Origin: a virus
Taxonomy: Duplodnaviria > Caudoviricetes
Direction: 5' to 3' (one strand)
Length of the DNA stretch: 64,000 nt
Virus record (IMG/VR): IMGVR_UViG_3300031555_004728
Coordinates: 160,001-224,000 of that record
Shown: piece by piece, positions 13,909-60,526 of the stretch
Position numbering within the stretch: position 1 is the first letter of the stretch
Layout: the number at the start of each line of letters is the position of its first letter
The notes under the pieces: generated by a model
The model's database searches: none
What the model was told of the DNA's origin: nothing
The model's input: the letters and a program-made list of their open reading frames with translations, nothing else
Position numbers and translations under genes: made by a program

Positions 13909-13979
13909 ATTATTTATCTCCTTTTATTATATTTCATATAAATGATATATCAATAAAATCCATAAGGGAGAGGATGGGG

Positions 13980-14061
13980 GAACCAATTTTGTTAAGTTAA
14001 ATTTCTCTAGTTATCGATAATTTACGAGAATTACAGAAAACTTACTTAACAAAACTGCAAC
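13980..14061 (+). repeat. 82-bp cassette-associated palindromic element, copy 1
   Basis: GAACCAATTTTGTTAAGT...ACTTAACAAAACTGCAAC; 11-bp perfect inverted arms. Confidence 0.97.
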
Positions 14062-14367
14062 CAACAAGAAATGTTTAATTATGTTGATCATTTATATGTA
14101 AATAAAAATAATTGTATAAATGGAACAAAAGTTATAGACTTTCCAACAGATAAAAATATAAATTTCATATCTGCATGTTTATGGAATGGTAATAACAGAA
14201 GTCATGAATATATAACAATACCATTATGTGCATTGGTTAGTAATAGAATTATAGAATTTAGAGATAATACTGGAGCTATATATGCATCAATTACAGTTTC
14301 TAGTGGTGTAGAAAAACTTACATTTGTATGTAACAATGAATGGTATTTATTATGTTTCTTTTTCTAA
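14053..14367 (+). other. Silent tail-fibre tip cassette 1
   Basis: Frame NCNQQEMFNYVDHLY...LLCFFF* begins in the repeat core after an in-frame TAA; no RBS before the internal Met. Confidence 0.8.
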
Positions 14368-14403
14368 TTATCTTGTATATGTGGAAGTACTATGATAAAG
14401 GGG

Positions 14404-14485
14404 GAACCAATTTTGTTAAGTTAAATTTCTCTAGTTATCGATAATTTCCTTTGATTACAGAAAACTTACTTAACAAAACTGCAAC
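14404..14485 (+). repeat. 82-bp element, copy 2
   Basis: Same arms and length as copy 1. Confidence 0.97.
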
Positions 14486-14836
14486 AAGCAATTTAAACAA
14501 ATACCAACTGATGATACATTTGCAATAAGTCATACATTAGATATTTCTGGATATGATATAACTACTGAACTTATAATAAATATCCATATTGATAATACAG
14601 ATTGGACATTATATCACAGACTTATAAAAAATCAATTAGAATTTGATGATGCTGATGTGATAACATATAGAACAGGTCAAGCTTTTTATATTCCTGACTA
14701 TTCAACAACATATTTATTAGCTGCAAATTGTAGAGTTTACAAAAATAAAACACTTACTATTTCAGCTGCAATATATCAAACAGGTGGGGTTACATCTACA
14801 AATAATACTTTTTGTATTTCAGCATGGTATAGATAA
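14477..14836 (+). other. Silent tail-fibre tip cassette 2 (no ATG)
   Basis: NCNKQFKQIPTDDTFAISHTLDISGY...FCISAWYR*; 119 sense codons open, no Met. Confidence 0.85.
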
Positions 14837-17742: not shown

Positions 17743-18063
17743 TTAATTATATATACCTACAATTTTCACAATTCTAAATGATGAAACATCTACTGATGAG
17801 GGGTTTTCTATATAAAAACTATTATCATCAGATTTTACAAAAGCATATAAATAATATTCAGAATATGGTAATATAAATGCATGTGAATTAATATCACGTG
17901 CAAATATGAATGTTTGATAGTATTGACCTGTTTTTACAAATGTAACTAACAAATATTCTATTTTTGAAATATTTTCATCATAAAATACTTCAGTTAATGG
18001 ATATCCATTATATAAAAAATATAAAACTTTATTTTTACTTTGTTTAAATTGTTGGTTGCAGTT
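17743..18063 (-). other. Silent tail-fibre tip cassette 3
   Basis: NCNQQFKQSKNKVLYFLYNG...IVKIVGIYN* in frame with the repeat core. Confidence 0.8.
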
Positions 18064-18136
18064 TTGTTAAGTAAGTTTTCTGTAATCTTCGTGAATTACT
18101 GAGAGATAGAGAAATTTAACTTAACAAAATTGGTTC
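18055..18136 (-). repeat. 82-bp element, copy 3
   Basis: Reverse-complement copy. Confidence 0.95.
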
Positions 18137-18219
18137 CCATCCCCTCTCCACCTTCTCTCACATACTATTTTTTATAATAATAACCTTAAAATAGCATTTT
18201 TAATTTTTACCCAATATTG

Positions 18220-20304: not shown

Positions 20305-20339
20305 AAATAAGAGAGTGTAAAAAACACTCTCTTATTTTT

Positions 20340-23300: not shown

Positions 23301-23744
23301 ATAATCTAATACGAATGGTATTTCTTCTACATAAATAGTAGTATTTTTACTTAAGTAAATAACGTTTTGAGTAACTTGCGTAGCATACATATTTGCTTCA
23401 TCAAAAACTTTACTTAATTCTTTTTCATCTAAAACTAACAAAAATCTACATTTTGCCGCAGAACCAATTACATTACTTAATTGAAATAATGAAGCATATG
23501 CATAAATTGATTCTGGTAATGAAGCTTTTTGTATAAAAAATTCTTTCAATAACGTAGATGTTGCATAGAACGTATCTTCTGAAATAGTTGATAGCTGTTC
23601 TGTAGTAAATCCTATAAGACCAGAAGTTCTTGTGGAGATATCTTGGTCTGGGAAATACTTAGGTATGAGGACATCTGTTGTCAAGGTTTTAAAATCGAAA
23701 TTATCTCTATAATTTCTAGTTGTATTTACCAACTTTAGACTCAC
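20340..23744 (-). CDS. Large virion structural protein, probably baseplate wedge
   Basis: 1134 aa; YTTLGKDGNF and GGSD..SLEDLR segments resemble baseplate wedge proteins of large myophages. Confidence 0.6.
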   Translation of the reverse strand: MSLKLVNTTRNYRDNFDFKTLTTDVLIPKYFPDQDISTRTSGLIGFTTEQLSTISEDTFYATSTLLKEFFIQKASLPESIYAYASLFQLSNVIGSAAKCRFLLVLDEKELSKVFDEANMYATQVTQNVIYLSKNTTIYVEEIPFVLDYDIEITRKKTKLAATEYVYAAKYVVTEFNNSISDITNPYIKIRRSVDGYFAMEVIGHQCVREETTENLIDNSTINYPIIDVKFDGILAGFDAFYKAPGDTEYTQLLLRVENSLPEKDPFCFYKIIDENILRLSFSLNDSYFQPEFNSEIKIVTYTTLGKDGNFDTYTGKEVSIIKDTEEYNYNETFILGALVTSGSEGGSDTISLEDLRRLTATQFRTANVLSTDEDLEEFFNSYKDKNENRIKFIKRRDDLSSRLYTGFMVCKNEDYVYPTNTLDITMNYKSWNNPDGGYTYTQDPGYLYTYETENGYNNRVVPLFKLGFKEDKLFRNFQGQNVYQNIMKDYFKWLHGINPSVNPSYSSSEEDWESLYISSKNENETLEYYVENVIYTCPHCGFQSHRTFSDPDSGKELCYCCHNEGIKTGYNMADMVLTVFDVEEIESRITKDMFVYANPFLMSITKHPGLVNYYLTIINQTSLLDFLQYNIDVPNQFIINQATFERALSKDKEYSVKLRLMSSMQWNPELLIPGISNDDYVGKRTNLSKNYVRVMMIIEDGGVDSCYMEMVPTSYDKDLDVVTFECKFRTNDHVTLGNQMQIQDYTNEELGYNPYLMDYTSTEYTMDESEKLKLWVNEREYIDDSSENTGTETASVMRLRSAITEGSNTEEEVIDNSGIRGNFTYIINKTSKLIPMTDVEVKFVVLYKEYEVDDDYVYTTNNYPSQQAMFSLVNYNWTNIYSTFSDRVDFIKPLTMIRSSMYFRDDRLYNVANGDIYLYSSPMIKYSLMQHFDSNGAYTKNECGKTNYEMFTYLINQYRNQYNNLETVLYSIICQATYLDLKWYNTYGKSKNYIIGDSDEIIDRVNISIGFYIYLVAGTDAIKVTDEIKSFIKETIENLNTTGSNELHISNLMRTIENNFAYVDHIKFIGINGDIDASGSYKTTDTMGYSTDYQSIKNITKDINELSKEERFAYVPEMLCINKDQICLVLYNED

Positions 23745-23755
23745 CTCAATTCTTT

Positions 23756-25306
23756 TTATTTTTCTCTAAATCTTAACTTGTAAACTGTACGTCCAAGTTT
23801 ATCAGGAACCATTTCAATGAATGGTGCCCCAACCCATGTATTACCAGTTGATAATATTTTAGGGTTATATGTTTCAAGGTAGTTTTTACTACCACTAGAA
23901 TTTAAATTAAATTCTGTTATAATTTCAGTATTCCAATCTTTTTTAAAAGAATACTGGTAGTTTATACTTATTTCTGGGTTTGTAATAAACTGTGACTTTG
24001 CAAATGTCATAATAGAATCTGGAATATTTGTTGGGAAAACTCCATAGAGTTTTGACCAATAAATAATATCCTCACCATTTTCTGCACAAACGATATAATA
24101 TGCAGAACATGCATAGTCAAGTACTTTATTTATAAGGTGATTATCTTTAGGTCTGAGTTCACCTTTATTTACAGCTGAAATATACTCTACCCAAAATTGG
24201 TGCATTCTAAATAGATGCAAATCTCTATCATCATTAAATGATATACTTAATTCTCCAGCAGCTAAAGAATCATCGATATGTCTACCATATGCAATACTAT
24301 TACCATGTAATGTCTTTCCATATGTATCATATTTAATAGATCGGTCTCTACATTCAAAACTTGTTACTCTATTTGAAGGTAACATCATGAATTGATGGTC
24401 CAATCCTACAGATTGTGACAACTGAAGTAATGTACTTGGGTTATTTTTAAACTCATATACATAATCAGGTATAGATTTTACTTGGTCTACTAATGTAAGA
24501 TTATTTGAACCTGTTGAATATATTACATTGCAATCAGGTCGTGTAAAGAACACATGTGCAAATGTTCTTGTTAACATATCATCTGGAGTAGCAACTTTAA
24601 ATCTGTTATAGTATTTGGCATATCTTTCATATAACTGAATACTACTTTCTTCATGTAAATTAATACTCTCCTTCAAATCATTAACTGCTTGTATGAAAGA
24701 ATTATCTGCATAATCGGTTTCATAATTATATTTATATTTATTAGTAGATGGATCGAATTCTGCAGCGGGAAATCCTTTGCTATTTTGAACTTTAGTCGGT
24801 GATTCTGATACTTCAGGATTAATCTGTTTAGGCTTAGTAACTCTACTTCCACTAAAATTAAAGCTGTTAATAGTAGAAAGTGCTAGTGATGGGTGTGATA
24901 CTTTATAAGTATTAACCTTCTTACCAGTTTCTATATTTTCAACAACTTTACCAGATGTCTTAATTTTAGAACCACTATTATCTTGAACTATGGATGTTGA
25001 TATTGTACTTTTATTTGTCTGTCTTGTAACAGCACTATTGTATACTGTATCACTATTCATAGCCATTAAAGATATACCTTCCATCTCTAAAAATGAATAT
25101 GAAACAGATGGGTGTTTAAGAATTACCCATCCAGATATATTACTATTTTTTACATTTACCCATTCGACATTATTTACAACACGATAATCTAATACTTCAA
25201 CTTTAGAACCAGTTGGTAGTGAACCAATGTAATTTTTATCTGAAGAATTTGATGTTGTATATACTTTTAATGATGAACGTCTTGTTTTAACTACAGCATA
25301 ATCCAA
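23756..25306 (-). CDS. Virion protein with N-terminal SH3-like domain (tail/baseplate)
   Basis: LKVY...IGSLPTGSKVEVL...WVNV...GWV SH3b pattern; late-type promoter at 25341-25352. Confidence 0.6.
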   Translation of the reverse strand: MDYAVVKTRRSSLKVYTTSNSSDKNYIGSLPTGSKVEVLDYRVVNNVEWVNVKNSNISGWVILKHPSVSYSFLEMEGISLMAMNSDTVYNSAVTRQTNKSTISTSIVQDNSGSKIKTSGKVVENIETGKKVNTYKVSHPSLALSTINSFNFSGSRVTKPKQINPEVSESPTKVQNSKGFPAAEFDPSTNKYKYNYETDYADNSFIQAVNDLKESINLHEESSIQLYERYAKYYNRFKVATPDDMLTRTFAHVFFTRPDCNVIYSTGSNNLTLVDQVKSIPDYVYEFKNNPSTLLQLSQSVGLDHQFMMLPSNRVTSFECRDRSIKYDTYGKTLHGNSIAYGRHIDDSLAAGELSISFNDDRDLHLFRMHQFWVEYISAVNKGELRPKDNHLINKVLDYACSAYYIVCAENGEDIIYWSKLYGVFPTNIPDSIMTFAKSQFITNPEISINYQYSFKKDWNTEIITEFNLNSSGSKNYLETYNPKILSTGNTWVGAPFIEMVPDKLGRTVYKLRFREK

Positions 25307-25504
25307 GGCTAATTCACCTTCTTTCTGTATCTTTCTGCCTTAAACTATTGTTTTCTGGGTTAATTTGCATAGGTAGAAACAAGTAATTAAGGGTGATGTG
25401 TACAAATGTTTATTGTCATCTATTTTATACTCAGTAGGAAATCTCACGTCCTACTGAGTATATTTTGTTAAAATAATATATTTTTGGATAGGTTGTGAGG
25501 ATAG

Positions 25505-25586
25505 GAACCAATTTTGTTAAGTTAACTTTCTCTATCTATTGGTAATTTACGAGAATTACAGAAAACTTACTTAACAAAACTGCAAC
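25505..25586 (+). repeat. 82-bp element, copy 4
   Basis: Same arms and length. Confidence 0.96.
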
Positions 25587-25910
25587 CACCAAATATATTA
25601 TACAAAACATGAGACTGAAAATGGTATTGAATGTTTTAGAGTTGGTAACATGGTTGAACTTTCATGTATAACAACATTTGATTTTCAGACTGATGGTACA
25701 ATACCAGATAATGTTGTTATACCATATGGATATAGACCATATTATAGGGGTATTCGTTTTCCAGTAATTCTTAGATCTGGTAGTGAGTATACATGTTGTA
25801 AAGGTTTTTTAACAATTGACGGTGTATTAACATTTGATAGTGTATCTTATAGTTGGAGAGAAGTACATTTTGTTTTAAGTTATATAACAAATGATGATTA
25901 TCCATCTTAA
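25578..25910 (+). other. Silent tail-fibre tip cassette 4
   Basis: NCNHQIYY...FRVGNMVEL...IPYGYRP...LSYIT; RxGNxV/xPxGYRP pattern typical of phage fibre C-termini. Confidence 0.85.
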
Positions 25911-25924
25911 AAAATTAAGATGGG

Positions 25925-25975
25925 GAACCAATTTTGTTAAGTAAAATAAACAAAAACTTTTTTGTTAAGTAAAAT
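25925..25975 (+). repeat. Left half of the element upstream of the expressed tail fibre, with duplicated arm
   Basis: GAACCAATTTTGTTAAGT at 25925; TTTTGTTAAGTAAAAT directly repeated at 25932 and 25960. Confidence 0.85.
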
Positions 25976-26010
25976 TTTTATTGTAAAAATATACCATAAA
26001 TAAAATAAAA

Positions 26011-26022
26011 AACATTCTTTTA
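26011..26022 (+). promoter_or_regulatory. Putative late promoter of the tail fibre
   Basis: AACATTCTTTTA (AACA-N6-TA). Confidence 0.55.
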
Positions 26023-26100
26023 ATGTGAAATACTACGGAGTTCTATCCGTATTTTCCTTTATTATTTTCATGAAAATATTAAAACAAGGAGGATTTTGAT

Positions 26101-27528
26101 ATGAGTACAGTAAGACATCATATTGAAATGACCCACTTAGATTCGGGTGGAAATAAATATATACTTTATCCAAAGAATACCTTGGCTGACGTTCATACGA
26201 GCTCAACATCAGGTGTTACGATCGACGGAAAAGTTAATTTCTATGGAACTTGTACAACAGCTGCAGTTACAGCTGCTAAAACTGCTTCAATTAGCGGATT
26301 TACACTTGCACAAGGACAACATGTAACAATAGCTTTCACTAACGGAATTACAGTAGCAAGTCCTACTTTAAATATCAATAGTCTCGGTGCAAAAGCTATT
26401 TATCACAAAGGTGCAGCTTTAAAAGCAAATGTTATTAGAGCAGGTGCACGTGTTCAATTAGTTTATGACGGAACTAACTTTGAAGTATTAAACTTTGATG
26501 CACCATACGCACAAAGTAACAACACTACAAAGTTTTATTTGTTAGGTACACCTAACGCTGAAAATGGTGTTCCATCTGACCAATACTTCGATACAGGCGT
26601 ATATGTAAGTGCAACAGATGGTCAATTAGTTGCAAAATCATTCTCTGGTAATGGTTCTGCATTAACAAACTTGAATGCTGGAAATATTGCTTCTGGTACA
26701 GTAGCAGCAGATAGACTTCCAACTTCAGGTGCAACAGCTGGAACTTATGGTGAAAATGCTGGAGATAATACATCATTAGCTCATAGTGGTTCTCTTGTAG
26801 TTCCAAAAATTTCATTAGACAAATACGGTAGAATTACATCTGCTGAAAACATTGTTTATACAATGCCAGCAAATGAAAATACTGATGAAAAAGTAAAAGT
26901 AACTCAAAATGCTACTACAAAAGCATATGTAACAGGTACAACAACTGCAAATGGAAATGCTGGTGGATTATTATATGATCCAAATGTATATCTTGATACA
27001 ACATCTGGTAGATTCCATGCAGCAACAATGAACTCAAATACTTACTACCTCGGAGATACTTCTAACTACATTGACAGTTCAAATTATACTGGAACTGCAG
27101 CAAATGTCGGAACACTTTCTGAGTGGTTGGTAGATAGTTGTGCTTCAGATAGTGCTAACGGAGTCACCAATCAGGCACTTACAGCTAATCAGGGATATTT
27201 GTTACAAAATCAGATTGATGAGCTAAACTGCAACCTGAATGAATTTGGAACACCTATTACAACAATTTATACTGATACTGTAGAAAAATCTGTAGAGATA
27301 CCACCTAATGCTAGATTTTTAAAAGTTAGTTTTTGGAATGGTTATGATAAATATTATGGGGCAGATATGTTTCATGCAAGAGGATTAAAAACTAGTGGAT
27401 CGGTGAATATTATACTTAGAGTTAGGTATGATAATTACATAGCACAAATAACAATAACACCAAATTCAAATATACTTAAATTTAAAATGGAATCAGGTTC
27501 AATTAATGTAATGCTTCATTTTATATAA
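26101..27528 (+). CDS. Tail fibre / receptor-binding protein (expression locus: constant region codons 1-375 plus variable tip)
   Basis: GGAGG RBS; fibre motifs PTLNINSLGAKAI, LVYDGTNF, DKYGRIT, ALTANQGYLLQNQIDELNCNL; AAACTGCAACC core at 27225-27235 in the same N-C-N frame as all cassettes. Confidence 0.88.
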   Translation: MSTVRHHIEMTHLDSGGNKYILYPKNTLADVHTSSTSGVTIDGKVNFYGTCTTAAVTAAKTASISGFTLAQGQHVTIAFTNGITVASPTLNINSLGAKAIYHKGAALKANVIRAGARVQLVYDGTNFEVLNFDAPYAQSNNTTKFYLLGTPNAENGVPSDQYFDTGVYVSATDGQLVAKSFSGNGSALTNLNAGNIASGTVAADRLPTSGATAGTYGENAGDNTSLAHSGSLVVPKISLDKYGRITSAENIVYTMPANENTDEKVKVTQNATTKAYVTGTTTANGNAGGLLYDPNVYLDTTSGRFHAATMNSNTYYLGDTSNYIDSSNYTGTAANVGTLSEWLVDSCASDSANGVTNQALTANQGYLLQNQIDELNCNLNEFGTPITTIYTDTVEKSVEIPPNARFLKVSFWNGYDKYYGADMFHARGLKTSGSVNIILRVRYDNYIAQITITPNSNILKFKMESGSINVMLHFI

Positions 27529-27565
27529 ATATTATATATAAAATACTATTAAGAAGGTGAGGGGA

Positions 27566-27647
27566 GAACCAATTTTGTTAAGTTAAATTTCTCTATCTAT
27601 CGATAATTTCCTTTGATTACAGAAAACTTACTTAACAAAACTGCAAC
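27566..27647 (+). repeat. 82-bp element, copy 5
   Basis: Same arms and length. Confidence 0.97.
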
Positions 27648-27998
27648 CAACAAGAATTGGTAGCATCATTAACTCCACATGAATCATATGGAGCACATAT
27701 GAATCCTACATATGATGCACAACATTCACTTTTTACATTAGGTAGATTTAAAATTGTATCCGGAACTGTAGAAAGTAAGCATTTTCCATATAATAGTAAT
27801 TCTGGTGCGTATGAATATACTTCATATTTTTCATACCCATTTAATGTGATACCTAGAGTTTTGGTTACTGCAGAATATCCTGCAGGATTACCAGAAGTTT
27901 GTGTAGCTTCAGTAACTACTACATATGTAAAACTTTCATGTAGTTCACAATTAAATAGTTTATGGGTAAATTGGTTTGCATTTTCATTTGATGAATAA
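27639..27998 (+). other. Silent tail-fibre tip cassette 5 (H-type-lectin/gp53-like)
   Basis: NCNQQELVASL...FSYPFNVIPRVLVT...VNWFAF. Confidence 0.85.
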
Positions 27999-28034
27999 AA
28001 AAAAGAAGAGGGTTTTTAATCCTCTTCTTTTTTC

Positions 28035-28859
28035 TTATAAAATACTTCCAATAGAATCTAAATCCATATCTCTATACATTTTATCAAACATGATGTTTGA
28101 AAATACAGAGCAGTTTTCATTATCTGGAATTGGATAAATATATGTCATTGGATATTTACCCATTTCTTCATAAAACATTTGTGCTACCACATTTGGATTG
28201 TTTTTAAATACACCACAACCATAAGCACCAAGATATAAAATATCAACTAAATGAGAATATGCACATTGCATTAGAATCTGAATTCTTTCTCTCATCGTAG
28301 ATTCTATTTCTTCTTCAGAAACATTATTTCGTAAAGCTGCCCCTCTATTAGGTGCTGCAATAGTAATAACGTCTGCTTTAAAGATACTACCTTTTTCACC
28401 AATAAATATAACATCTGGAGTATAAATCATTCTATGCTTATATAGAGCTTTATTTTTATTCTCTCTATTATAATGATAGAATGTGTCATCGAATGCTTCC
28501 AATATAGGATACAATGTACTAGAATGGCAGATACACTCTTCCTGAGCACTTGAACCTTTAATAAACATCCCACCTGGATTTTTATATGAAGCGAAATTTA
28601 ATACACAAATTTTATTCTTCTTTGATTTTGAATTTGTAACAGCTTCAACAATTCCAGATTTAATAATTTTACATTTAAATGCACCAGAGTTGTCTCTTTC
28701 TAGATTATCTTTTAATAACTCCATGCAATTTTCTTCAGTATATACAACAGAATTTTGAATTGAATATTCTATTTCATCTTGAAATCTTCTGTGCATATCA
28801 ACTATATGCTCACGTGCTTTTTCTTTGTTAAGCTCTTTCTTTGTCCAATAATTAATCAT
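28035..28859 (-). CDS. TIGR02452-family PARG-like macrodomain protein
   Basis: VLNFASYKNPGGMF..GSSAQEE, IYTPDV, LGAYGCGVF.N motifs. Confidence 0.88.
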   Translation of the reverse strand: MINYWTKKELNKEKAREHIVDMHRRFQDEIEYSIQNSVVYTEENCMELLKDNLERDNSGAFKCKIIKSGIVEAVTNSKSKKNKICVLNFASYKNPGGMFIKGSSAQEECICHSSTLYPILEAFDDTFYHYNRENKNKALYKHRMIYTPDVIFIGEKGSIFKADVITIAAPNRGAALRNNVSEEEIESTMRERIQILMQCAYSHLVDILYLGAYGCGVFKNNPNVVAQMFYEEMGKYPMTYIYPIPDNENCSVFSNIMFDKMYRDMDLDSIGSIL

Positions 28860-29073
28860 GATAAAATCCTCCTTATATAAGACATTTCTACAAAAATAAT
28901 ATATTTACAAAAACGAATATTATTCATTAATATAGATATATTATTTTGATGTACAAGGGCACTTGTACACCACCTATTAATTATTCAACAGTGCCCTTGT
29001 GCACCTTATTTTTTATTTATTAATTAAAACAAATTATTAAATCATAAAATATTAGAAAGGAAAGTATGAATTT

Positions 29074-29466
29074 ATGAAAACTATTGATAAATTGAAATTA
29101 GCAATTTTCGAAGCTGGTAATAATGGCATTATCGATGAAGGTAAAGTTAAAGAAATGATTACTGTTTGCGAATCTGCTAATATGGAAAATCAGGATGATG
29201 TAAACGCTCTGACTAAGATTACAGAAGAGTTAATTTCAGTTACAGAATCTGTTGAAAATCCAGAAGCTCCTGTTGTTGAAGAACCAGTAGTTCCTGAAGA
29301 GCAACCTGTTCAAGAATCAGTTGCTGAGATTCAGCATAAAGAAGAAACTCCTTCTGTAAATATGACAGAACTTAAACTTGAGATCTTTGAAAGTGAAGCA
29401 AGTGGTCAAATTACTCCAGAAGAAAGAGATCTCTTGCTAAGTATGATGGATGTACATACAGCTTAA
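29074..29466 (+). CDS. Putative internal head protein (paralogous motif family)
   Basis: C-terminal ELKLEIFESEASGQITPEERDLLL; late-type promoter at 29028-29039. Confidence 0.6.
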   Translation: MKTIDKLKLAIFEAGNNGIIDEGKVKEMITVCESANMENQDDVNALTKITEELISVTESVENPEAPVVEEPVVPEEQPVQESVAEIQHKEETPSVNMTELKLEIFESEASGQITPEERDLLLSMMDVHTA

Positions 29467-29467
29467 T

Positions 29468-29503
29468 AAATATGAGATACAGAAAAATCTGTATCTCATA
29501 TTT
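29468..29503. terminator. Bidirectional terminator, identical copy at 33875-33910
   Basis: AAATATGAGATACAGA-AAAA-TCTGTATCTCATATTT. Confidence 0.75.
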
Positions 29504-29506
29504 ATT

Positions 29507-30157
29507 TTATTTTCCTTGATATGCTTTAAGATAAAGACCTGGTTCTCTTACTTTAGTAGATGGGGTATTAAATTTTTTAGATATTTCATGATCTTTTATC
29601 TCTTCACCTCTACTTCTAATAGATTCTATAGGCACATTACTCTTATTTTCTTTACCAATTTCTAACCGTGACTCATTGTCTAAAGGGCTAGAATAATAAT
29701 CTCCTCTTGAATAATTTTCTTTATATTTGTTAAGTTTATTTGATAAATCGTGTTCAAGTTTTTTAATTTGAAGTGTGATTTTTTCTTTAACAGAATCACT
29801 TGCTGTTTTTTGTATTTTTTTTAACGCTTTAATTTTTTCTTCAGTTTCTTCATTTTGTTTTCTTAATTCTTGTAATGCTTTTGTATGTTCTTTTTCATAT
29901 CTAGTTGCTTCCAAAAGAACTATACACTCATCATTATCAATAATACCTTCTGTAAATCTTTCTAGTACTGAAATATGATATTTAGAATTATCTACTGATT
30001 CTAATAATAATATACATTCATCTACTGATATATCACCATTAATTACTGATTCTGTAATTGAATCAATAACTGCTGGTTCAGTTTCAATAACCATATCTTC
30101 AACTGATTCTGTAACACAGTCTAAAATATTGTCTAAAAGTTGTTCAAATTTACTCAT
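29507..30157 (-). CDS. Putative internal head protein
   Basis: Two degenerate copies of the E...G.I..DEC..LLE motif; ES-rich N-terminus. Confidence 0.55.
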   Translation of the reverse strand: MSKFEQLLDNILDCVTESVEDMVIETEPAVIDSITESVINGDISVDECILLLESVDNSKYHISVLERFTEGIIDNDECIVLLEATRYEKEHTKALQELRKQNEETEEKIKALKKIQKTASDSVKEKITLQIKKLEHDLSNKLNKYKENYSRGDYYSSPLDNESRLEIGKENKSNVPIESIRSRGEEIKDHEISKKFNTPSTKVREPGLYLKAYQGK

Positions 30158-30242
30158 ATTATTAAATCCCTTTCTCTATATTTAATGAACCCAAAACAAA
30201 GTTTTAATAAAACTTTGTTTTAGGAATTTTTGTTAAAATATT

Positions 30243-31070
30243 CTAATACCAATTGCCTGCTTCAACGCCAATATATTGACTTTCGCTACCATAATAAAAA
30301 TAAACCGTTGTACTTAACGGTGCAACTTCATTAAATGTAATTTGTACAGCATTATATGCATATCCTATAGCTTTTATAGTACCACCAGAATCTATACCAT
30401 TATATTTTAAACCACATGAAGTAGTTACACCATTAATGACAGTTCTAGATGTTCCAGCCATATTATTTATAATCCATGGATCATGAATATAAATACTTCC
30501 ACCAGAATCAGATCCACAAACATATTGTCCATATGGTAATTTGTAATAATATCTTTGACATAACCTCAGTTCTTCATCATATCTTCTAGGAATATTTCCT
30601 GTAAACTTAGTACCCTTTTCAAGTTTTATAAAGTCTATATTATAACTATCAGTCATTAATACTGAAAATTCATCATAATTTTCTATTGGACCTCCTGTGT
30701 GTCTTGTATATGATAACTTTAAATTTGGTGATATAATAAATGAATCACTTACAGATCCATTTATTATATATGATCTTATAACTCCATCAAAACTTATAGT
30801 TATAGTATACTGAGCATTATCATCTATTGTATACTCTAAGATTTGTTTTAGTTCAACTGATTTAACAGTTCCTATATTAATAGATATACCTGAATTATCA
30901 TTTAATTTTGATACTATTGGCATAGTATCATTTGGATTATTTATAGTAATATATTTAATCCACATATCTGCTGTATATCCACTCGCTCCAGTATTAAAAC
31001 TAGTACCTCTTTGCCATACTTGAAAATTTCCATTAATTAAAATATTAGGGTTAACAAATTGGTTGCAGTT
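30243..31070 (-). other. Silent tail-fibre tip cassette 6 (large, carbohydrate-binding-like)
   Basis: NCNQFVNPNILINGNFQVWQRG...KLEKG...EELRLCQRYY, a pattern typical of phage fibre modules; the annotated Met is internal. Confidence 0.88.
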
Positions 31071-31143
31071 TTGTTAAGTAAGTTTTCTGTAATCTAAGGA
31101 AAATCTCGATAACTAGAGAAAGTTAACTTAACAAAATTGGTTC
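31062..31143 (-). repeat. 82-bp element, copy 6
   Basis: Reverse-complement copy; interior identical to copy 8. Confidence 0.96.
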
Positions 31144-31216
31144 AATTCCTACATTATCAATGATAATTTCTATCTAAAAACAATCTACTAATTAAGTAAA
31201 TAGGAGGATATAAATC

Positions 31217-31936
31217 ATGAATATGTCTTCATTAATATCAAGAATAAAAACTGAACTAGGTCTGTATTCTATAGCATTACCTCTTGACAATGTGGATGCT
31301 ACTATTGCAGAGGTTATAATTAATACAACACTTAGAACATATTCTCAATATTTTCCTCAATATGAAATAATAAGAAAATCTAGTGCTGAAATAGAAAGAT
31401 TATATAGAAATCTTGAGTATTGTGATATGACTCTTGAAGTACCTGATGGTAGTGAAATAGTATTTGTTGCTGATGTTTATTATGATGCATCTGATATAAA
31501 TGGTATTGGATATTATGGTGCTGGTATGCCTATATATTCACCAAATATGATTACTGATTTATTAACTGCTAATATAGGTGCTAATTTGACAAATATGATG
31601 TTTCCTAAATTAACATGGCATTTTCAATATCCTAATAAACTTAGAGTATATCATTTATATGGTGGAAATATATTTATCAAGTGTGCTAAATTACATGATA
31701 AATCATTAACATCAGTTCCTTTTTCACAAAAAGAAACATTTACGAATATTGCTATTTTAGATGTTAAGAAAGCAATGTATAATATAATCAAGCACTATAA
31801 TGAACTTGAAACTGCTCATGGAAGAATTAATTTGAAAATTGATGATTGGGCAGATTCATATAACGAGAGAAAAGAATTACTTAGAGAGTGGGATGATACA
31901 TTCCACTTAGAGCAGAAGTCAGTTTATTTTGCGTAA
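31217..31936 (+). CDS. Putative virion structural (neck/head-completion-like) protein
   Basis: 239 aa, GGAGG RBS, late-type promoter at 31179-31190; function inferred only. Confidence 0.5.
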   Translation: MNMSSLISRIKTELGLYSIALPLDNVDATIAEVIINTTLRTYSQYFPQYEIIRKSSAEIERLYRNLEYCDMTLEVPDGSEIVFVADVYYDASDINGIGYYGAGMPIYSPNMITDLLTANIGANLTNMMFPKLTWHFQYPNKLRVYHLYGGNIFIKCAKLHDKSLTSVPFSQKETFTNIAILDVKKAMYNIIKHYNELETAHGRINLKIDDWADSYNERKELLREWDDTFHLEQKSVYFA

Positions 31937-31956
31937 AATATAATCCATTGGAATTT

Positions 31957-32427: not shown

Positions 32428-32505
32428 AATTATAATTCCTCATTTCTAATATTTGAATTAACTAATAGTTAAAATATTAATTAAGTAATAAAAGGAGATT
32501 GAAAA

Positions 32506-32817: not shown

Positions 32818-32820
32818 TTT

Positions 32821-33273: not shown

Positions 33274-33346
33274 AAAGATACGAGTACTTTTTTTGTACTC
33301 GTATCTTTATTTTTATTTAAATATTATTTAGCAGGAGAGGGGGCGG

Positions 33347-33428
33347 GAACCAATTTTGTTAAGTTAACTTTCTCTAGTTATCGATAATTTACGAAGAATA
33401 CAGAAATCTTACTTAACAAAACTGCAAC
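33347..33428 (+). repeat. 82-bp element, copy 7
   Basis: Same arms and length. Confidence 0.96.
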
Positions 33429-33824
33429 CAAATAACATGCCAGATATATCATTATTCTGTTGATGGTAATAATCCTTTAGGTATACCTTGGGGTTGTTTT
33501 ATATATAAATATTCCAATGGATTAATGATGATATCTGCTTGGCAAACAGTTAGTGATATTCCTGTATCATCATCATGGGGATCTTTATATTCATCTGCCA
33601 GAATTGGTGGGATTGCATACGGATATCAATCTAATACATGGGTACCAGTAACATTTAAAAATGTATTTTTTGAAATTGCATGGTCAAACCACCCGAACCT
33701 ATTAACATTGGGAGGTGGAGGATTTTATCATGAACAAACACAAGATATATATCTTGTATCTGCTGTAAATATTCCAGATGTTGATGCTACTATATATTAT
33801 CATACAGTAGGTATATGGAAATAA
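33420..33824 (+). other. Silent tail-fibre tip cassette 7
   Basis: NCNQITCQ...YKYSNGLM...WGSLY...VGIWK*; fibre C-terminal pattern. Confidence 0.85.
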
Positions 33825-34755: not shown

Positions 34756-35094
34756 TTAAAATCCTATTACTAAATAACTGATTTTATATGTACTATCTTC
34801 TGAAAGTGATCCATTAAAATTCCATCCTTTAATATTAACCTTAGTTCTCTCTATAGTACCAACACCCACATTTATAATTGTATCAATATACTCATTTCCT
34901 GCATTTTTTGTAACACTAACAAATGGCTCTTGTGTATAACTAACAGGATATGTCAACTGTCCTTGAAGTATCCACTCTGATATTGGGACAATATCAATAT
35001 ATCCAAAACATATTTTAAGACCATTTTCAAATATTAAATATCCTGATGTTCCATCTTCAAGTTGTTTTCTATATTCTATAAGTCGATTGCAGTT
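34756..35094 (-). other. Silent tail-fibre tip cassette 8 (gp53-like)
   Basis: NCNRLIEY...SGYLIFENGLKICFG...TYPVSY...YLVIGF*; core variant AACTGCAAT is synonymous. Confidence 0.87.
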
Positions 35095-35167
35095 TTGTTA
35101 AGTAAGTTTTCTGTAATCTAAGGAAAATCTCGATAACTAGAGAAAGTTAACTTAACAAAATTGGTTC
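35086..35167 (-). repeat. 82-bp element, copy 8
   Basis: Reverse-complement copy. Confidence 0.96.
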
Positions 35168-35257
35168 CACTTCCTTATTATTTTCTTTTAATTATTTATA
35201 TAAATAAAACATAATTATAATACATATGTTAAAACTTAATACAAAAATAAATATGAG

Positions 35258-42142: not shown

Positions 42143-43168
42143 ATGTTTGATGTACATGAAAGAGACAGACAAGAAATTGACACGATTTTGGATAACCTGA
42201 AAAAGCAGGGCAAAATTGATTTAGAACTTAAAGGTGATAATGAAAGACAACTTTTCCAAGACCAATTTCACCAGCAAGCAATTCAGATGGGATTATTACA
42301 ACAACCCAGTTCTGAATTTGCAAGTTCGTATAATGTACTTAGAGAATTTTTACTTAGTAAGAAATTTGAAAATCTTTCTAGTAATACTTTAAAAATTTAC
42401 TATAATACGATTTTCAATTTTATTGAACAAATGGATGAAGGTAAGACTCTATTTGATGTCAAGACTGCTGATATCAGAGCTTATTTAATGCACTATCAAG
42501 ATGAACATAAGTGTTCTAGTCTAACTATAGATAATATGAGAAGGTGTTTCTCATCATTTTATAATTGGCTAGAAGATGAGGATTATGCTATTAAAAACCC
42601 GGTTAAAAAGATAAAGAAAATAAAAAGTGATAAAGTTATAAAGAAACCATTTAGTCATGAAGAATTGGAAATGATTAAAGATGCTTGTAGAAACTATAGG
42701 GAATTATCACTTATAGAGTTTCTGTATTCTACAGGTATTCGTGTTAGTGAACTTTGTGGACTAGATATTTCAGATTTAGATTTTAACCAAAGAGAAGGTA
42801 TTGTATTTGGTAAAGGTAGCAAAGAACGTGTTATATATTTTGATGTTAGAAGCAAAGTCCATTTATTACGATATTTAAATACAAGAGTCGATAATAATCC
42901 GGCATTATTTGTTACTAAGAAATATCCATTTAATAGATTAGAAAAAAGCGGTGTCGAATCTATTATAAGAGAAATAGGTAAACGTGCTGGAGTGGAAAAA
43001 TGTCATCCACATAGATTTAGAAGAACATTTGCTACTAACCTTCTCGATAGAGGGGTTCCTATCGAGCAAGTACAGATTTTATTAGGTCATAATAAAATAG
43101 ATACTACGTTATTATATGCTACAGTAAATACACAATCAGTTAAATTAAATCATGACAGATTCGTTTAA
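42143..43168 (+). CDS. XerD-like tyrosine recombinase
   Basis: TGIRVSEL (R), GKGSKER (K), HRFRR (HxxR), LLGH, TLLY (Y); SAM-like N-domain. Confidence 0.93.
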   Translation: MFDVHERDRQEIDTILDNLKKQGKIDLELKGDNERQLFQDQFHQQAIQMGLLQQPSSEFASSYNVLREFLLSKKFENLSSNTLKIYYNTIFNFIEQMDEGKTLFDVKTADIRAYLMHYQDEHKCSSLTIDNMRRCFSSFYNWLEDEDYAIKNPVKKIKKIKSDKVIKKPFSHEELEMIKDACRNYRELSLIEFLYSTGIRVSELCGLDISDLDFNQREGIVFGKGSKERVIYFDVRSKVHLLRYLNTRVDNNPALFVTKKYPFNRLEKSGVESIIREIGKRAGVEKCHPHRFRRTFATNLLDRGVPIEQVQILLGHNKIDTTLLYATVNTQSVKLNHDRFV

Positions 43169-48897: not shown

Positions 48898-49067
48898 GAT
48901 TAAACCTCCTTAATAATAATATTTTTTGTTGACGATTGTATTTATTTACGTCACACTATTAAGTTTTCATAAAGGTATGTAATATCTTTTACCTTTATTC
49001 ACGATAATATTATATCATTGAATTTGATAGAAATTACAAGAAAATATAATGGAATAGAGTGGGAGGG

Positions 49068-49149
49068 GAACCAATTTTGTTAAGTTAAATTTCTCTAGTT
49101 ATCGATAATTTACGAAGATTACAGAAATCTTACTTAACAAAACTGCAAC
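49068..49149 (+). repeat. 82-bp element, copy 9
   Basis: Same arms and length. Confidence 0.97.
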
Positions 49150-49542
49150 CAACAAGAAATTTCTGAAACTTTAAACTATAGAAATGCTTATATAGAAGTA
49201 TTAAAAAATGATGATCAGACAAATACTACAATAACACCTGGTACAGATACTACTTTAAATATGTTTACAATACCTAGTACTGGCATATATTTTATAGTAG
49301 CATCCATAACTGCTACTAGTAAAGAAGATAATAAATATTTAATATTTCATTTGATTAAAACAACTTCAACAGGAACATATTGGACACCTATAGAACTTTG
49401 TGATAGTGGTTCTTATACAAGACTTTCAGGTTCTTGTATGGTTCCACTTGATAAAGGTACTATTTTAACACTTAAAGCAAGTACAAATAATTCAAGTAAT
49501 TTAAGTGTTAGTTATCGTTTTAGTATAGTAAAATTAGTATAA
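49141..49542 (+). other. Silent tail-fibre tip cassette 9 (C1q/BclA-like)
   Basis: NCNQQEISE...FTIPSTGIYFI...LDKGTILTL...FSIVKLV*. Confidence 0.85.
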
Positions 49543-52897: not shown

Positions 52898-52956
52898 TTA
52901 ATATGAATTAAAAGAATGTTTTTTGGTGTATGAAATGGTAAAATATAAATTACTGA

Positions 52957-53038
52957 GAACCAATTTTGTTAAGTTAAATTTCTCTATTTCTCGATAATTT
53001 ACGAAGAATACAGAAAACTTACTTAACAAAACTGCAAC
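52957..53038 (+). repeat. 82-bp element, copy 10
   Basis: Same arms and length. Confidence 0.96.
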
Positions 53039-53329
53039 CAGCAAGATCTTGAAACTTATATATCATCATCCACAATGCCATATGTATTTATAACATGTAG
53101 AGAAACTGATTCTACTGAAGTTGTAGATATCTTAAATTGTATACTTGATGAATTACCTAATGATATTTTATTTGGTATTAGGTTAGAAGGTCATAATATT
53201 CCAAGACAGTTTGGATCAGGGTATTTATATGATAATAGTAATTATGGTTCACTAATATTATCTACATGGGATGCACCTGCATTTTTTAGAATTTATAATA
53301 AAGAAATAACAAGAATAGTTTTAACCTAG
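53030..53329 (+). other. Silent tail-fibre tip cassette 10
   Basis: NCNQQDLETYISSSTMPYVF...RIVLT* in frame with the core. Confidence 0.8.
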
Positions 53330-53356
53330 TTTTGTTTGAACTATAAATGGATAGTG

Positions 53357-53438
53357 GAACCAATTTTGTTAAGTTAACTTTCTCTATCTTTCGATAATTT
53401 CCTTTGATTACAGAAATCTTACTTAACAAAACTGCAAC
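53357..53438 (+). repeat. 82-bp element, copy 11
   Basis: Same arms and length. Confidence 0.96.
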
Positions 53439-53726
53439 CAGCAAGAAATTATAAATTGTATAGAATCCAATCATATATGGCTTTCCGATAATACTGGTGA
53501 AGATATTACAACATCTGTATATAATTTAGCAACATTTTTCCCAATTAATACATCATTCTGTTGCATACTTCAAACACCATCTGGTATTTGGAATGGTACA
53601 GGTTTTGTATATAAAGGAGCTGAAAATCAATTAAATGGGACATTCATATTATCAAGTGTTGCAGGTATATGTACTGTAAGAATATTAAATGGATATGCAC
53701 TAGGACAAATGTTATATACATTTTAA
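53430..53726 (+). other. Silent tail-fibre tip cassette 11 (no usable start)
   Basis: NCNQQEIINCIESNHIWLSD...GQMLYTF*; 98 sense codons open, missed by the ORF track. Confidence 0.82.
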
Positions 53727-59710: not shown

Positions 59711-60364
59711 TTAAATTGCCCAATATCCATCTACTGATATTAAACCTTCAATTTTATTAGTATTATCATATCCAGAACCACTTACTGTATAACATAATAA
59801 TGCAAATCCAGTGTCCCATAATTCTCTTATATAATAATTTTTTACAAACCACATTCCACCATGCAACGTAAACTGTGGACAGGCATTATAAATATTAAAT
59901 GGATAAAGACATGCTGTTGATGGTGTACCTGCACTATCTGATGTTGCACCATTAATACCTGATGCTACACACCATGCTTTACAATAGCCATTTTGATATT
60001 TTATATAATTCCAGTTATTTATTTTACCGCTTTCTACCATAGGATTTTCACGAGCCCACGGTTCAAATTTACGTACAACTGTAACACCATCAGAGTCATG
60101 CATTGTTAAATATGCTCTTCTATATACTCTTCCATTAATAGTTGTGAATTCTTGAAATTTATATATCCATGGAGATCCAGGTGAATTGAATGAACCGTTT
60201 CCATCATAAACCATAAGTCTACCAGCAGAAACTTGTGGGAGATTTAAACATGTTTCTGCCTCAGTATTTCCTTTTACATAATATATACCACTATCTAAAA
60301 CTGTATTAATATCAACATTTTCTAAGTATCCTTTAATAATAACAAGATTTTGAGAGTTGCAGTT
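59711..60364 (-). other. Silent tail-fibre tip cassette 12 (pyocin-knob-like plus C-terminal domain)
   Basis: NCNSQNL...DINTVLDSGIYY...NLP...GRLMV...QEFTT...VYRR...WNYIKYQNG...VDGYWAI*. Confidence 0.88.
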
Positions 60365-60437
60365 TTGTTAAGTAAGATTTCTGTAATCTTCGATAATTCT
60401 CTAAAGATAGAGAAATTTAACTTAACAAAATTGGTTC
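60356..60437 (-). repeat. 82-bp element, copy 12
   Basis: Reverse-complement copy. Confidence 0.95.
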
Positions 60438-60526
60438 ACACCCCTTTTTTCTTATAATTAATTTAGTATTAAATTATCAATTTAACAAATTTGTAATGTT
60501 TAACTTATATAAGGAGGTAAAAAATA

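What the first reader, a model, noticed from the sequence alone, without database searches (positions are those of the whole stretch)
25925..27235. The promoter plus constant-region module sits between the two ends of the 82-bp element, suggesting it is the mobile or swapped unit
Seen: the element's left end (GGGGAACCAATTTTGTTAAGT) is at 25925, followed by the late-type promoter and 375 constant codons, then the right-end core AAACTGCAACC. So the 1.3-kb expression module replaces the interior of an otherwise ordinary site, between cassette 4 and copy 5. AACC recurs at both ends of most sites, as AACCAA in 6 of 12. Inference: rather than tips moving to the gene, the expression module may exchange with the 82-bp interior at another locus by double crossover, two successive inversions, or excision and reintegration. 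This would preserve genome order and explain how same-orientation cassettes are used without deleting essential genes.
Basis: partly seen in the sequence, partly recalled or inferred. Interest (0 to 1): 0.9.

Follow-up and report, generated by a model that had tools for sequence, protein, structure and literature searches.

The report
Movable front of phage fibre gene
In a 275-kb gut phage, the promoter and front part of the tail-fibre gene form a 1.3-kb block that sits at different landing sites in related strains, each time joined to a different stored fibre tip, so the phage probably changes host recognition by moving the gene's head rather than its tips.

Summary
The left end of the repeat (25922-25942, 21/21) and its 11-bp right core (27225-27235) bracket a 1,314-bp block: leader plus 375 constant codons of the only intact fibre gene. 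The whole 275,512-bp phage genome has 35 complete repeats, each heading a start-less tip, and this one split copy.

The reading is supported. In a 78-97% identical metagenome contig (L009) the same block, with the same two boundaries, sits about 43 kb away. There it lies between a helicase gene and another tip, and both flanks are collinear with our genome. That excludes a fixed expression locus and a single inversion. Two database fibres differ by 2 of 375 constant residues yet carry different tips; one tip is our silent cassette at 25577. In Logan contigs of two runs the block runs into non-tip1 sequence, while tip1 sits on another contig with its usual downstream flank.

The mechanism is inferred: two crossovers (left with left, right with right), probably made by the genome's single Xer-like tyrosine recombinase. 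One contig hints at circle insertion instead. No real-time switching was seen.

Other windows of this genome were already followed up with the same general reading. Interest is high; I class it as a new variant of single-expression-site systems.

The parts
25922..25942 (+). Left half-site of the split element (GG + AACCAA + 11-bp arm TTTTGTTAAGT); left boundary of the movable module
   Evidence: 21/21 to the element consensus. The same boundary is seen in L009.
25943..26100 (+). Module leader. It holds a second exact copy of the 11-bp arm (25960-25970, inside a 16-nt direct repeat with 25932-25947), a degenerate right-arm-like AATAAACAAAA between them, a terminator-like hairpin (26034-26051), a 16-bp palindrome (26063-26078) and an AAGGAGG ribosome-binding site (26087-26093). 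The promoter is not identified.
   Evidence: The leader is 95.6% identical (151/158) in L009.
26101..27225 (+). Constant 375 codons of the tail-fibre gene
   Evidence: It is 96-98% identical in P0002, P0003 and the L009 fibre, which carry other tips. Homologues carry phage-fibre Pfam domains.
27225..27235 (+). Right core AAACTGCAACC, in frame as (L)-N-C-N; right boundary of the module and the fusion point to the tip
   Evidence: The same junction is seen in L009, P0002 and P0003.
27236..27528 (+). Tip 1, the currently expressed tip (100 aa counted from N-C-N)
   Evidence: In X7, X11 and X12 it lies on contigs that do not continue into the module.
25502..25910 (+). Complete element (25502-25587) plus the silent tip cassette that begins at the core at 25577 (110 aa); it is expressed in another strain
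   Evidence: The tip of P0003 is 99% identical to it.
27563..27998 (+). Complete element (27563-27648) plus a silent tip cassette (119 aa); the unit is absent in two related strains
   Evidence: X7 and X11 contigs join 27528 to 28013 with 67 other letters between (tables 5 and 8).
42143..43168 (+). Xer-like tyrosine recombinase (341 aa); the only site-specific recombinase found in the genome and the candidate catalyst
   Evidence: PF00589 at 4.8e-37. NF040815 scores 238.8 bits against a 220 cut-off. It is the single PF00589 match in the genome. No serine recombinase, Y1 transposase, reverse transcriptase or IS110 transposase was found.
13977..14836 (+). Two tandem docking elements (13977-14062, 14401-14486) with silent tips (104 and 119 aa)
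17743..18139 (-). Docking element (18054-18139) with a silent tip (106 aa)
30243..31146 (-). Docking element (31061-31146) with a silent tip (275 aa)
33344..33824 (+). Docking element (33344-33429) with a silent tip (134 aa)
34756..35170 (-). Docking element (35085-35170) with a silent tip (112 aa)
49065..49542 (+). Docking element (49065-49150) with a silent tip (133 aa)
52954..53726 (+). Two tandem docking elements (52954-53039, 53354-53439) with silent tips (99 and 98 aa)
59711..60440 (-). Docking element (60355-60440) with a silent tip (217 aa)

Best explanation
The 1,314-bp stretch 25922-27235 is a self-contained, relocatable expression head for the phage's tail fibre. It holds the left half-site, the leader with ribosome-binding site, 375 constant codons and the right core.

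The genome holds 35 landing pads. Each is an 82/86-bp palindromic element made of two inverted 19-bp half-sites: left GG-AACCAA-arm and right arm-CTGCAA-CC. Each is followed in frame by a start-less tip that is closed upstream by a TAA inside the element.

Switching happens when the head changes places with whatever lies between the left half-site and the right half-site of another pad. This takes one crossover in the left sites and one in the right sites. That can be two inversions for an inverted pad, or excision plus re-entry for a direct pad.

The head then reads into the new tip. The old tip is left behind a complete element, and the order of all other genes is unchanged.

Shown: the split element; the 35 pads; the head at two different loci in two related genomes with identical boundaries and collinear flanks; at least four tips on near-identical heads.

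Inferred: that the exchange is conservative and site-specific, that the single Xer-like tyrosine recombinase (42143-43168) makes it, that it is reciprocal, and that it happens often enough to act as a host-range switch.
For: Structure:
- One split copy among 36 left ends and 36 right cores in the genome. The boundary matches are far above chance.
- All 35 tips open in the N-C-N frame for 89-275 aa. A TAA lies two codons upstream in the element consensus (read).

Relocation:
- L009 positions 1-440 match our genome 142322-142760, that is tip A and its core.
- L009 positions 430-1742 match the module, genome 187235 back to 185923, at 96.8%.
- L009 positions 1718-3439 match genome 143280-145011, the left end of the next element and its flank.
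- Both flanks belong to one locus and are in our relative order.
- The module's neighbours there are a Dda-like helicase, a DHH phosphoesterase, a UvsX-like protein and an RNA polymerase beta subunit. In our genome the neighbour is a virion structural protein.

Tip variety:
- The constant parts of P0002 and P0003 differ at 2 of 375 residues, yet their tips differ.
- The P0003 tip is 99% identical to our silent cassette at window 25577.
- The L009 tip is the orthologue of our cassette at genome 142760.

Contigs of public runs (laid at 88% likeness):
- X11 record 4 is the module plus 439 such letters.
- Tip1 lies on X7 record 27 and X11 record 5, which continue to 28013 and beyond.

Enzyme:
- Only one PF00589 match in the genome, and it is Xer-like.
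- No serine recombinase, Y1 transposase, reverse transcriptase or IS110 transposase.

Site logic:
- The arms are perfect 11-bp inverted repeats and invariant in 34-35 of 35 copies.
- The 6-bp cores of the left and right sites differ.
Against: - The right site of the module shares only 11 bp with the elements. It lacks the 11-bp arm, which is little for a tyrosine-recombinase site.
- The recombinase gene is 15 kb from the module. Nothing links it to the sites except that it is the only candidate.
- In L009 the module stands in for 520 bp of our sequence, including a whole cassette. A simple interior swap is therefore not directly seen.
- In X11 the 68 letters before the module lie on an element's interior and right arm (joint 27640 to 25926). 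That gives a whole element abutting the module, not a replaced interior.
- I saw no circle junction, no inversion intermediate and no mixture inside one sample. All four runs were Logan contigs, which drop rare variants, and only 15 of 56 joints were printed.
- The relative's copy of the 25.9-kb locus could not be fetched. 'An ordinary element left behind' therefore rests on contigs that carry only 11-19 non-module letters before tip1's core. That is below the tool's 31-letter rule for bridging.
- The phage has a UvsX-like recombinase, so homology-driven exchange is not excluded.
Confidence: 0.6

Rival explanations
1. The module excises as a circle of about 1.3 kb by recombination between the AACC(AA) at its left end and the AACC of its right core. 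It then inserts by one crossover at the right end of a complete element. The leftover element is removed later or kept.
For: AACC(AA) stands as a direct repeat at both ends: 22 of 35 elements have AACCAA at the right end and all have it at the left. In X11 record 4, 68 letters that lie on an element's interior and right arm are joined directly to AACCAA plus the left arm of the module (tables 5 and 8). This is the junction type expected from insertion next to a whole element. By its coordinates it would form an 11-6-11 site of Xer/dif shape. The module leader itself holds a degenerate right-arm-like word and a second copy of the left arm, which looks like a decayed earlier junction.
Against: In our genome and in L009 the module's left end is preceded by the purine-rich flank typical of an element's outer side, not by an element. 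I saw the X11 junction only as coordinates at 88% likeness, never its letters. No circle junction was found (no hits in IMG/VR). The module's current right end reads AACCTG, not AACCAA.
Confidence: 0.2
2. There is no dedicated site-specific system. The module and the cassette units are shuffled by the phage's general homologous recombination (UvsX-like) through the short shared ends and the 82-bp repeats, rarely and over evolutionary time. The elements would be selfish or structural repeats.
For: A UvsX-like gene is present. Strains differ by gain or loss of whole element-plus-cassette units, with breakpoints inside the repeats. Element interiors are mosaic. All differences seen are between strains or samples, never within one sample.
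Against: An 11-bp right homology is very short for homologous exchange, yet four independent fusions use exactly the same junction. All 35 copies have the same length. The arms are invariant while the interiors vary, which points to sequence-specific recognition. P0002 and P0003 differ at 2 of 375 constant residues but carry different tips, so switching is fast relative to point mutation.
Confidence: 0.15
3. The module stays put. The tips, as element-plus-cassette units, move to it, or large inversions bring them there, as in a classical shufflon. The different contexts would reflect wider genome rearrangement.
For: Cassette units do differ between strains at several loci. Known phage systems work by inversion (PMC6109161, abstract and passages read). 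In X11 the module may still be at the home locus with another tip behind it; that placement was inferred from coordinates only.
Against: In L009 the module lies among replication and transcription genes. Both of its flanks come from one locus that is about 43 kb from the module's place in our genome and is collinear with it over 14.9 kb. A single inversion would give flanks from two loci. In X7 and X11, tip1 keeps its downstream flank without the module.
Confidence: 0.08
4. The different arrangements are assembly chimeras made at the repeats.
For: Three IMG/VR contigs of the same strain exist, and two of them end at elements. Repeats do break assemblies.
Against: The module's ends share only 21 and 11 bp with the elements, shorter than the 31-letter words of Logan contigs. 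Two false joins would be needed to frame the module exactly. Four independent sources agree: an NCBI metagenome contig, two ENA-derived proteins and two Logan runs.
Confidence: 0.03

Closest known systems
Mycoplasma pulmonis vsa locus (HvsR tyrosine recombinase) and the M. agalactiae vpma / M. bovis vsp loci (Xer1, Mbr)
   Same: There is one expression site. [quoted passage not shown] In vpma a unique promoter is linked to silent genes. The recombinases belong to the tyrosine family, and Xer1 is named after Xer (PMC2268961, passages read).
   Different: Those loci are compact gene clusters rearranged by inversions at one kind of site. Here the silent parts are spread over about 190 kb of a virus genome on both strands. 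Each pad is a two-ended palindrome. The head carries both kinds of end and is found relocated with gene order intact.
Rin shufflon of Bifidobacterium prophages
   Same: It is a phage receptor-binding protein with a constant N-terminal gene part and several start-less variable C-terminal parts. It has an 11-bp crossover repeat and an armless XerD-like tyrosine recombinase (PMC6109161, abstract and passages read).
   Different: The Rin segments are tandem, lie next to the constant part and the recombinase, and are shuffled by inversion. It has no 82-bp palindrome, no genome-wide dispersal and no second boundary upstream of the promoter.
R64 shufflon (Rci, 19-bp asymmetric sfx sites); recalled, not read here
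   Same: The conserved site is 19 bp long, made of a short core plus one conserved arm, with the other arm free. It uses a tyrosine recombinase and swaps C-terminal ends of one gene.
   Different: It is clustered and works by inversion only. Here two such half-sites with different cores face each other in every element and also frame the head.
Min/Gin/Cin invertible tail-fibre segments of p15B, Mu and P1
   Same: They are phage host-range switches that exchange fibre C-termini (as summarised in PMC6109161).
   Different: They use serine invertases and one local invertible region with 2-6 segments. No serine recombinase is present here.
Recombinase-mediated cassette exchange with heterospecific lox/FRT sites (engineered; recalled)
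   Same: A cargo framed by two incompatible sites swaps with the stuffer between the same two sites at a landing pad, by two crossovers, without other change.
   Different: That is a laboratory method. No natural example is known to me, and here the exchange itself is inferred, not observed.
Integron attC sites and the folded XerCD site of CTX phage (recalled)
   Same: They are imperfect palindromes of 60-140 bp used by tyrosine recombinases as folded single strands. One strand of our element folds better in 34 of 35 copies.
   Different: The recombinase fails the integron-integrase model (91.9 bits against a 265 cut-off). There is no array behind an attI site. The stems never vary, so folding is untested.
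Neisseria pilE/pilS and trypanosome VSG gene conversion (recalled; VSG abstract seen in the listing)
   Same: They have dispersed silent copies and a single expressed gene.
   Different: There the expression site is fixed and silent information is copied into it. Here the expression head itself is found at different loci.

Membership tests
Shufflon / multiple-inversion system (Rci-sfx, Rin, Min) | One constant 5' gene part joined to alternative 3' parts at a short shared site | tested here: met
   375 constant codons end in the 11-bp core. There are 35 start-less tips in the same frame. Four different fusions are seen.
Shufflon / multiple-inversion system (Rci-sfx, Rin, Min) | Alternative segments clustered in one invertible region beside the gene | tested here: not met
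   The 35 sites run from genome 29.5 kb to 220 kb, 13 on the + strand and 22 on the - strand, between unrelated genes.
Shufflon / multiple-inversion system (Rci-sfx, Rin, Min) | Switching by inversion between inverted sites | tested here: inconclusive
   The L009 arrangement is not a single inversion, because both flanks come from one locus. None of the 15 printed joints (of 56) changes strand. Two successive inversions would leave the pattern seen.
Shufflon / multiple-inversion system (Rci-sfx, Rin, Min) | Dedicated recombinase encoded next to the segments | tested here: inconclusive
   There is a single tyrosine recombinase in the genome, at 42143-43168. It is 15 kb from the module and not adjacent to any element.
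Mycoplasma-type single expression site (vsa/vpma) | Unique promoter or 5' region, silent promoter-less genes and a tyrosine recombinase | tested here: met
   One module with a ribosome-binding site and start codon; its promoter was not identified. The tips lack starts and are closed by a TAA. The recombinase is Xer-like.
Mycoplasma-type single expression site (vsa/vpma) | Rearrangement by inversions inside one compact locus | tested here: not met
   The pads are dispersed. The module is found about 43 kb away with gene order intact.
Integron | IntI-type integrase | tested here: not met
   TIGR02249 scores 91.9 bits against a 265 cut-off. NF011946 scores 52.4 against 435.
Integron | attC-like palindromes recombined as folded single strands | tested here: inconclusive
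   Three of 5 copies fold better than shuffles, with z about -3.4 to -4.0. The antisense strand is more stable in 34 of 35 copies, but the copies are not independent. All stem pairs are invariant, so there is no covariation.
Xer/dif-type recombination | Recombinase of the Xer family | tested here: met
   NF040815 (XerA-type) scores 238.8 bits against a 220 cut-off. The XerC and XerD equivalog models are below their cut-offs. The best solved relative is a XerC-like protein, 4a8e, at 1.1e-32.
Xer/dif-type recombination | 28-bp site: two 11-bp inverted arms around a 6-bp centre | tested here: inconclusive
   None is present in this genome at spacers of 0-15 and up to 2 mismatches per arm, except a degenerate 4-bp-spaced one in the module leader and one unrelated hit. 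The X11 junction would form one, but this is judged from coordinates only.
Gene-conversion antigenic variation (pilE/pilS type) | Fixed expression locus into which silent information is copied | tested here: not met
   The module has different unique flanks in L009 and in our genome.
Diversity-generating retroelement | Reverse transcriptase with a template repeat | tested here: not met
   There is no PF00078 match in the genome. The tips are unrelated sequences: only 13 pairs among 36 tips reach E <= 1e-3.

The most novel reading that the evidence does not exclude
This is a natural recombinase-mediated cassette exchange. A single Xer-like recombinase swaps a 1.3-kb promoter-plus-constant-region head with the stuffer of any of 35 two-ended docking palindromes scattered round a 275-kb phage genome. 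One virus could then try 36 receptor-binding tips without inverting or deleting any other gene. The same exchange would also move tip cassettes between loci, which would explain how the library became dispersed.
Probability: 0.35. Interest if true: 0.9.

Novelty: new variant of a known kind. Interest (0 to 1): 0.8.

Why it matters
Phage host range is usually changed by point mutation, by local inversion switches with a few segments, or by retroelement mutagenesis. Here one virus carries 36 unrelated tips for one fibre. The evidence points to the expression head, not the tips, as the travelling part. That solves the problem of using cassettes in either orientation anywhere in an essential genome.

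If the exchange is site-specific, it would be a natural counterpart of a widely used genome-engineering trick. It would offer a compact two-site, one-enzyme system, and a model for how large silent libraries are built and dispersed. It also matters for reading metagenomes, because assemblies of such phages break or differ at these sites.

Tried and rejected
RNA-level joining (trans-splicing or template switching) was considered because the pads are dispersed and hairpin-shaped. I rejected it as the main route because DNA contigs themselves carry the different fusions. Rfam found no family for the element, only two group I introns elsewhere. There are no tRNAs.

A retroelement route was rejected because the genome has no reverse transcriptase. 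Serine invertase, Y1 transposase and IS110 transposase are also absent.

Covariation in the hairpin could not be tested because every stem pair is invariant.

Relatives were sought without result in:
- INPHARED phages, by protein;
- IMG/VR, with the junction, the left boundary, a neighbouring protein, the X11-type junction and the leader;
- GTDB genomes.

The constant region found only two distant fibres, L007 and L008. The left-end word gave 19 single matches in bacterial genomes and one in IMG/VR. I looked at L027 and L029, which are unrelated. The other 18 gave no alignment of 60 bp or more at E 1e-8.

IMG/VR contigs L001-L006 are the same strain, covering genome 15.9-66.6 kb only, and add no variant.

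The AlphaFold model of the fibre was poor (mean pLDDT 45.1). I ran no fold search. The helix it draws across the junction (358-379) followed by a beta-rich tip is only a hint.

Identity of the module against its flanks in L009 (96.8% against 90.5-93.4%) does not separate selection from separate history.

From, weak items kept out of the evidence:
- X11 has about half depth in bin 25239-25905. That could mean the cassette at 25577 is missing there and the module still sits at the home locus behind element 25502.
- X12 record 12 is 329 bp at depth 4.3 with 0 differences, and starts 19 letters before tip1's core without lying on the module. That suggests a same-strain sample with tip1 silent, but 19 letters is under the tool's 31-letter rule.
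- X7 record 26 stops exactly at 25925, which may mean two upstream contexts in that sample.
- No module piece for X4 was among the printed rows.
- Run shares that I did not lay (X1-X3, X5, X6, X8-X10, X13-X21) are not used.

Complex prediction, the protein-atlas search and the search of protein representatives were not used. Supplementary files of the papers were not opened.
Full report
**Observation**

The window is bases 160001-224000 of a single 275,512-bp virus record. It has direct terminal repeats, an estimated completeness of 100% and 28.5% G+C.

Its 21-base left end occurs 13 times in the window at up to 3 mismatches, with none expected. Its 11-base right core occurs 13 times at up to 1 mismatch, with 0.99 expected. 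Twelve pairs form complete elements of constant length.

The thirteenth pair is split. The left end is at 25922-25942 (21/21) and the right core at 27225-27235. Between them lie a 158-base leader and the first 375 codons of the gene 26101..27528. Genome-wide there are 35 complete elements and only this one split copy.

One detail is unverified, the 'late-type promoter'. A sigma-70-type scan gives no more sites than shuffles do, 15 against 15.9. The leader holds:
- a second exact copy of the 11-base left arm;
- a degenerate right-arm-like word;
- a terminator-like hairpin;
- a 16-bp palindrome;
- a strong ribosome-binding site.

**What the parts are**

Every complete element ends in AAC-TGC-AAC/T. 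That opens a frame of 89-275 codons with no start, and a TAA lies two codons upstream inside the element consensus (tip lengths; TAA read).

The 36 tips are nearly all unrelated to each other. Only 13 pairs reach E <= 1e-3, and 21 tips are singletons.

The gene itself has no Pfam family. Its N-terminal homologues in the large protein collection end in known phage-fibre domains such as PF03406, PF12571 and PF13884, and one is named a phage tail protein. I therefore accept 'tail fibre' by homology of the constant part.

The element is a long imperfect palindrome. Two perfect 11-bp inverted arms are each flanked on the outside by a 6-bp word that differs between the two ends: AACCAA on the left, and CTGCAA on the right followed by CC. 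Each end is thus a 19-bp unit of core plus one conserved arm.

The arms and the inner 5-bp stem never vary in 34-35 of 35 copies, while the centre is mosaic. The lack of variation means folding cannot be tested by covariation. One strand folds better in 34 of 35 copies, but the copies are not independent.

The genome encodes exactly one tyrosine recombinase, at window 42143-43168. It is of Xer type. There is no serine recombinase, Y1 or IS110 transposase, or reverse transcriptase.

**Is the module the moving part?**

I could read 14,908 of its 88,482 bp as L009.

L009 is collinear with our genome from 142.3 to 159.2 kb at 78-94% identity, with one insertion. This is our module, 96.8% identical over 1,313 bp, on the strand of the local cassettes.

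- On one side the module is joined through the same right core to the orthologue of our silent tip at genome 142760.
- On the other side it is joined through the same left end to the flank that in our genome precedes the element at 143302.
- Its neighbours there are a Dda-like helicase, a DHH phosphoesterase, a UvsX-like protein and an RNA polymerase subunit. In our genome the neighbour is a virion structural gene.

Both flanks of the module belong to one locus in the normal order. The relative is therefore neither a single-inversion state nor a case of a tip copied into a fixed expression locus.

The protein collection adds two more fusions:
- P0003 carries the tip that is silent at window 25577 in our genome (99% identical).
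- P0002 carries a tip absent from our library.
- Their constant parts differ at only 2 of 375 residues.

Logan contigs of four public runs were laid on window 13900-33899 at 88% likeness.
- In two runs from different studies (X7, X11) the module continues into 396 and 439 letters that are not tip1.
- In both runs tip1 lies on another contig, which carries on into the usual downstream flank at 28013.
- These tip1 contigs start 19 and 11 letters before the core, and those letters did not lie on the module.

This is what a repeat shared by all elements would give. It is below the tool's 31-letter rule, and I did not see the letters.

**Limits and a discordant detail**

I could not fetch the relative's copy of the 25.9-kb locus.

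In L009 the module replaces 520 bp of our sequence, namely parts of two elements and the cassette between them. Either that strain never had that cassette, or the exchanged unit can be any stretch framed by a left and a right half-site.

Unit-sized differences between strains are indeed common:
- one element-plus-cassette unit is missing in L009 at the 155-kb locus, with the breakpoint near the left end;
- the unit at 27563-27998 is replaced by 67 letters in X7 and X11.

In X11 the 68 letters in front of the module lie on an element's interior and right arm, joined at 27640 to 25926. That would put a whole element directly against the module's AACCAA-plus-arm. It would create an 11-6-11 palindromic site of the shape that Xer recombinases use. 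This fits insertion of a circular module, or precise loss of a cassette, better than replacement of an interior. I know it only from coordinates.

**Mechanism**

The best-supported reading is that the head changes places with the stretch between the two half-sites of another pad. It does so by one crossover in the left sites and one in the right sites. This could be two inversions, or excision and re-entry, depending on orientation.

The different cores of the left and right sites would forbid left-right joins. That is the logic of engineered cassette exchange with incompatible sites, and the 19-bp core-plus-one-arm layout recalls the shufflon sites of R64. Both comparisons are recalled, not read here.

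The weak point is the module's right site, which keeps only 11 bp and no arm. The catalyst is assigned by elimination. General recombination (UvsX-like) and circle insertion remain live rivals. Assembly error is unlikely, because the shared ends (21 and 11 bp) are shorter than assembler words and four independent sources agree.

**Comparison with what is known**

In function the nearest systems are the mycoplasma single-expression-site loci. [quoted passage not shown] In M. agalactiae, a Xer-named tyrosine recombinase links one promoter to silent genes (PMC2268961, passages read).

Among phages the nearest is the Rin shufflon. It has a constant and several variable receptor-binding parts, an 11-bp crossover repeat and an armless XerD-like recombinase (PMC6109161, abstract and passages read).

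All of these are compact loci worked by inversion. The present system fails that defining feature: it has 35 pads over about 190 kb, and the head is relocated with gene order intact.

It also fails the integron-integrase model and the fixed-locus feature of gene-conversion systems.

Six full-text searches found no paper describing a dispersed tip library or a travelling expression head in a phage. This covers only the held open-access library.

**Verdict**

The mechanism is open.

I class it as a new variant of single-expression-site variation, of high interest. Other windows of this same genome were already followed up in this scan with the same general reading. My evidence for the module's relocation comes from my own calls.

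Noticed in passing
window 15331-15608 (-) and 16560-16867 (-): There are two group I introns (Rfam RF00028, 81.5 and 79.8 bits), 1.2 kb apart, with 86-88% identical repeated flanks (families D6 and D7). In runs X7 and X11 contigs join 15583 to 17288, so intron or intervening content differs between strains.
   Followed up: partly
window 27529-28012, and L009 11200-11282 against genome 155058-155633: Whole element-plus-cassette units are present or absent between strains. The unit at 27563-27998 is replaced by 67 letters in X7 and X11. L009 has one element where our genome has two plus a cassette, with the breakpoint near the left end.
   Followed up: partly
window 18262-20304 (+) and 28035-28859 (-): The phage carries a full polyphosphate kinase 1 gene (four PPK domains, E down to 3e-80). 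It also carries a microbial-type poly(ADP-ribose) glycohydrolase domain protein (E 4.6e-30), which lies right beside the fibre locus.
   Followed up: no
window 29465-29506 and 33872-33913: A 42-bp perfect-hairpin, terminator-like palindrome is repeated at 98% identity, 4.4 kb apart (families D16 and I14). It is unrelated to the 82-bp element.
   Followed up: no
window 43225-44130 (-): The gene next to the recombinase encodes a 301-aa protein with a C-terminal DUF4376 domain (E 4e-6) and a coiled-coil-like middle part. It may be another fibre-related protein.
   Followed up: no
genome 142833-142860, outside the window (printed): A (TA)n run of about 26 bases lies directly upstream of the left end of one docking element. 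It lies inside the 520-bp stretch that the module replaces in L009.
   Followed up: no
L002 and L003 (IMG/VR contigs of the same strain): Two independent assemblies of the same strain end within 13-28 bp of a docking element (genome 29624 and 66664). This could reflect repeat-induced breaks or heterogeneity at those sites.
   Followed up: no
L007 3033-4183 and 8631-9838: A 409-kb IMG/VR contig has a distant homologue of the fibre's N-terminal part. It shows 48-51-nt inverted repeats (86-88% complementary) between neighbouring fibre-like genes, possibly a local inversion switch of the classical kind.
   Followed up: no
P0004-P0009: More distant fibres (57-66% identical over the constant part) end in the same helix-like motif, but with L-N-S-N/K instead of L-N-C-N, followed by unrelated tips. 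The junction is therefore conserved beyond this phage. Their genomic contexts could not be fetched.
   Followed up: partly
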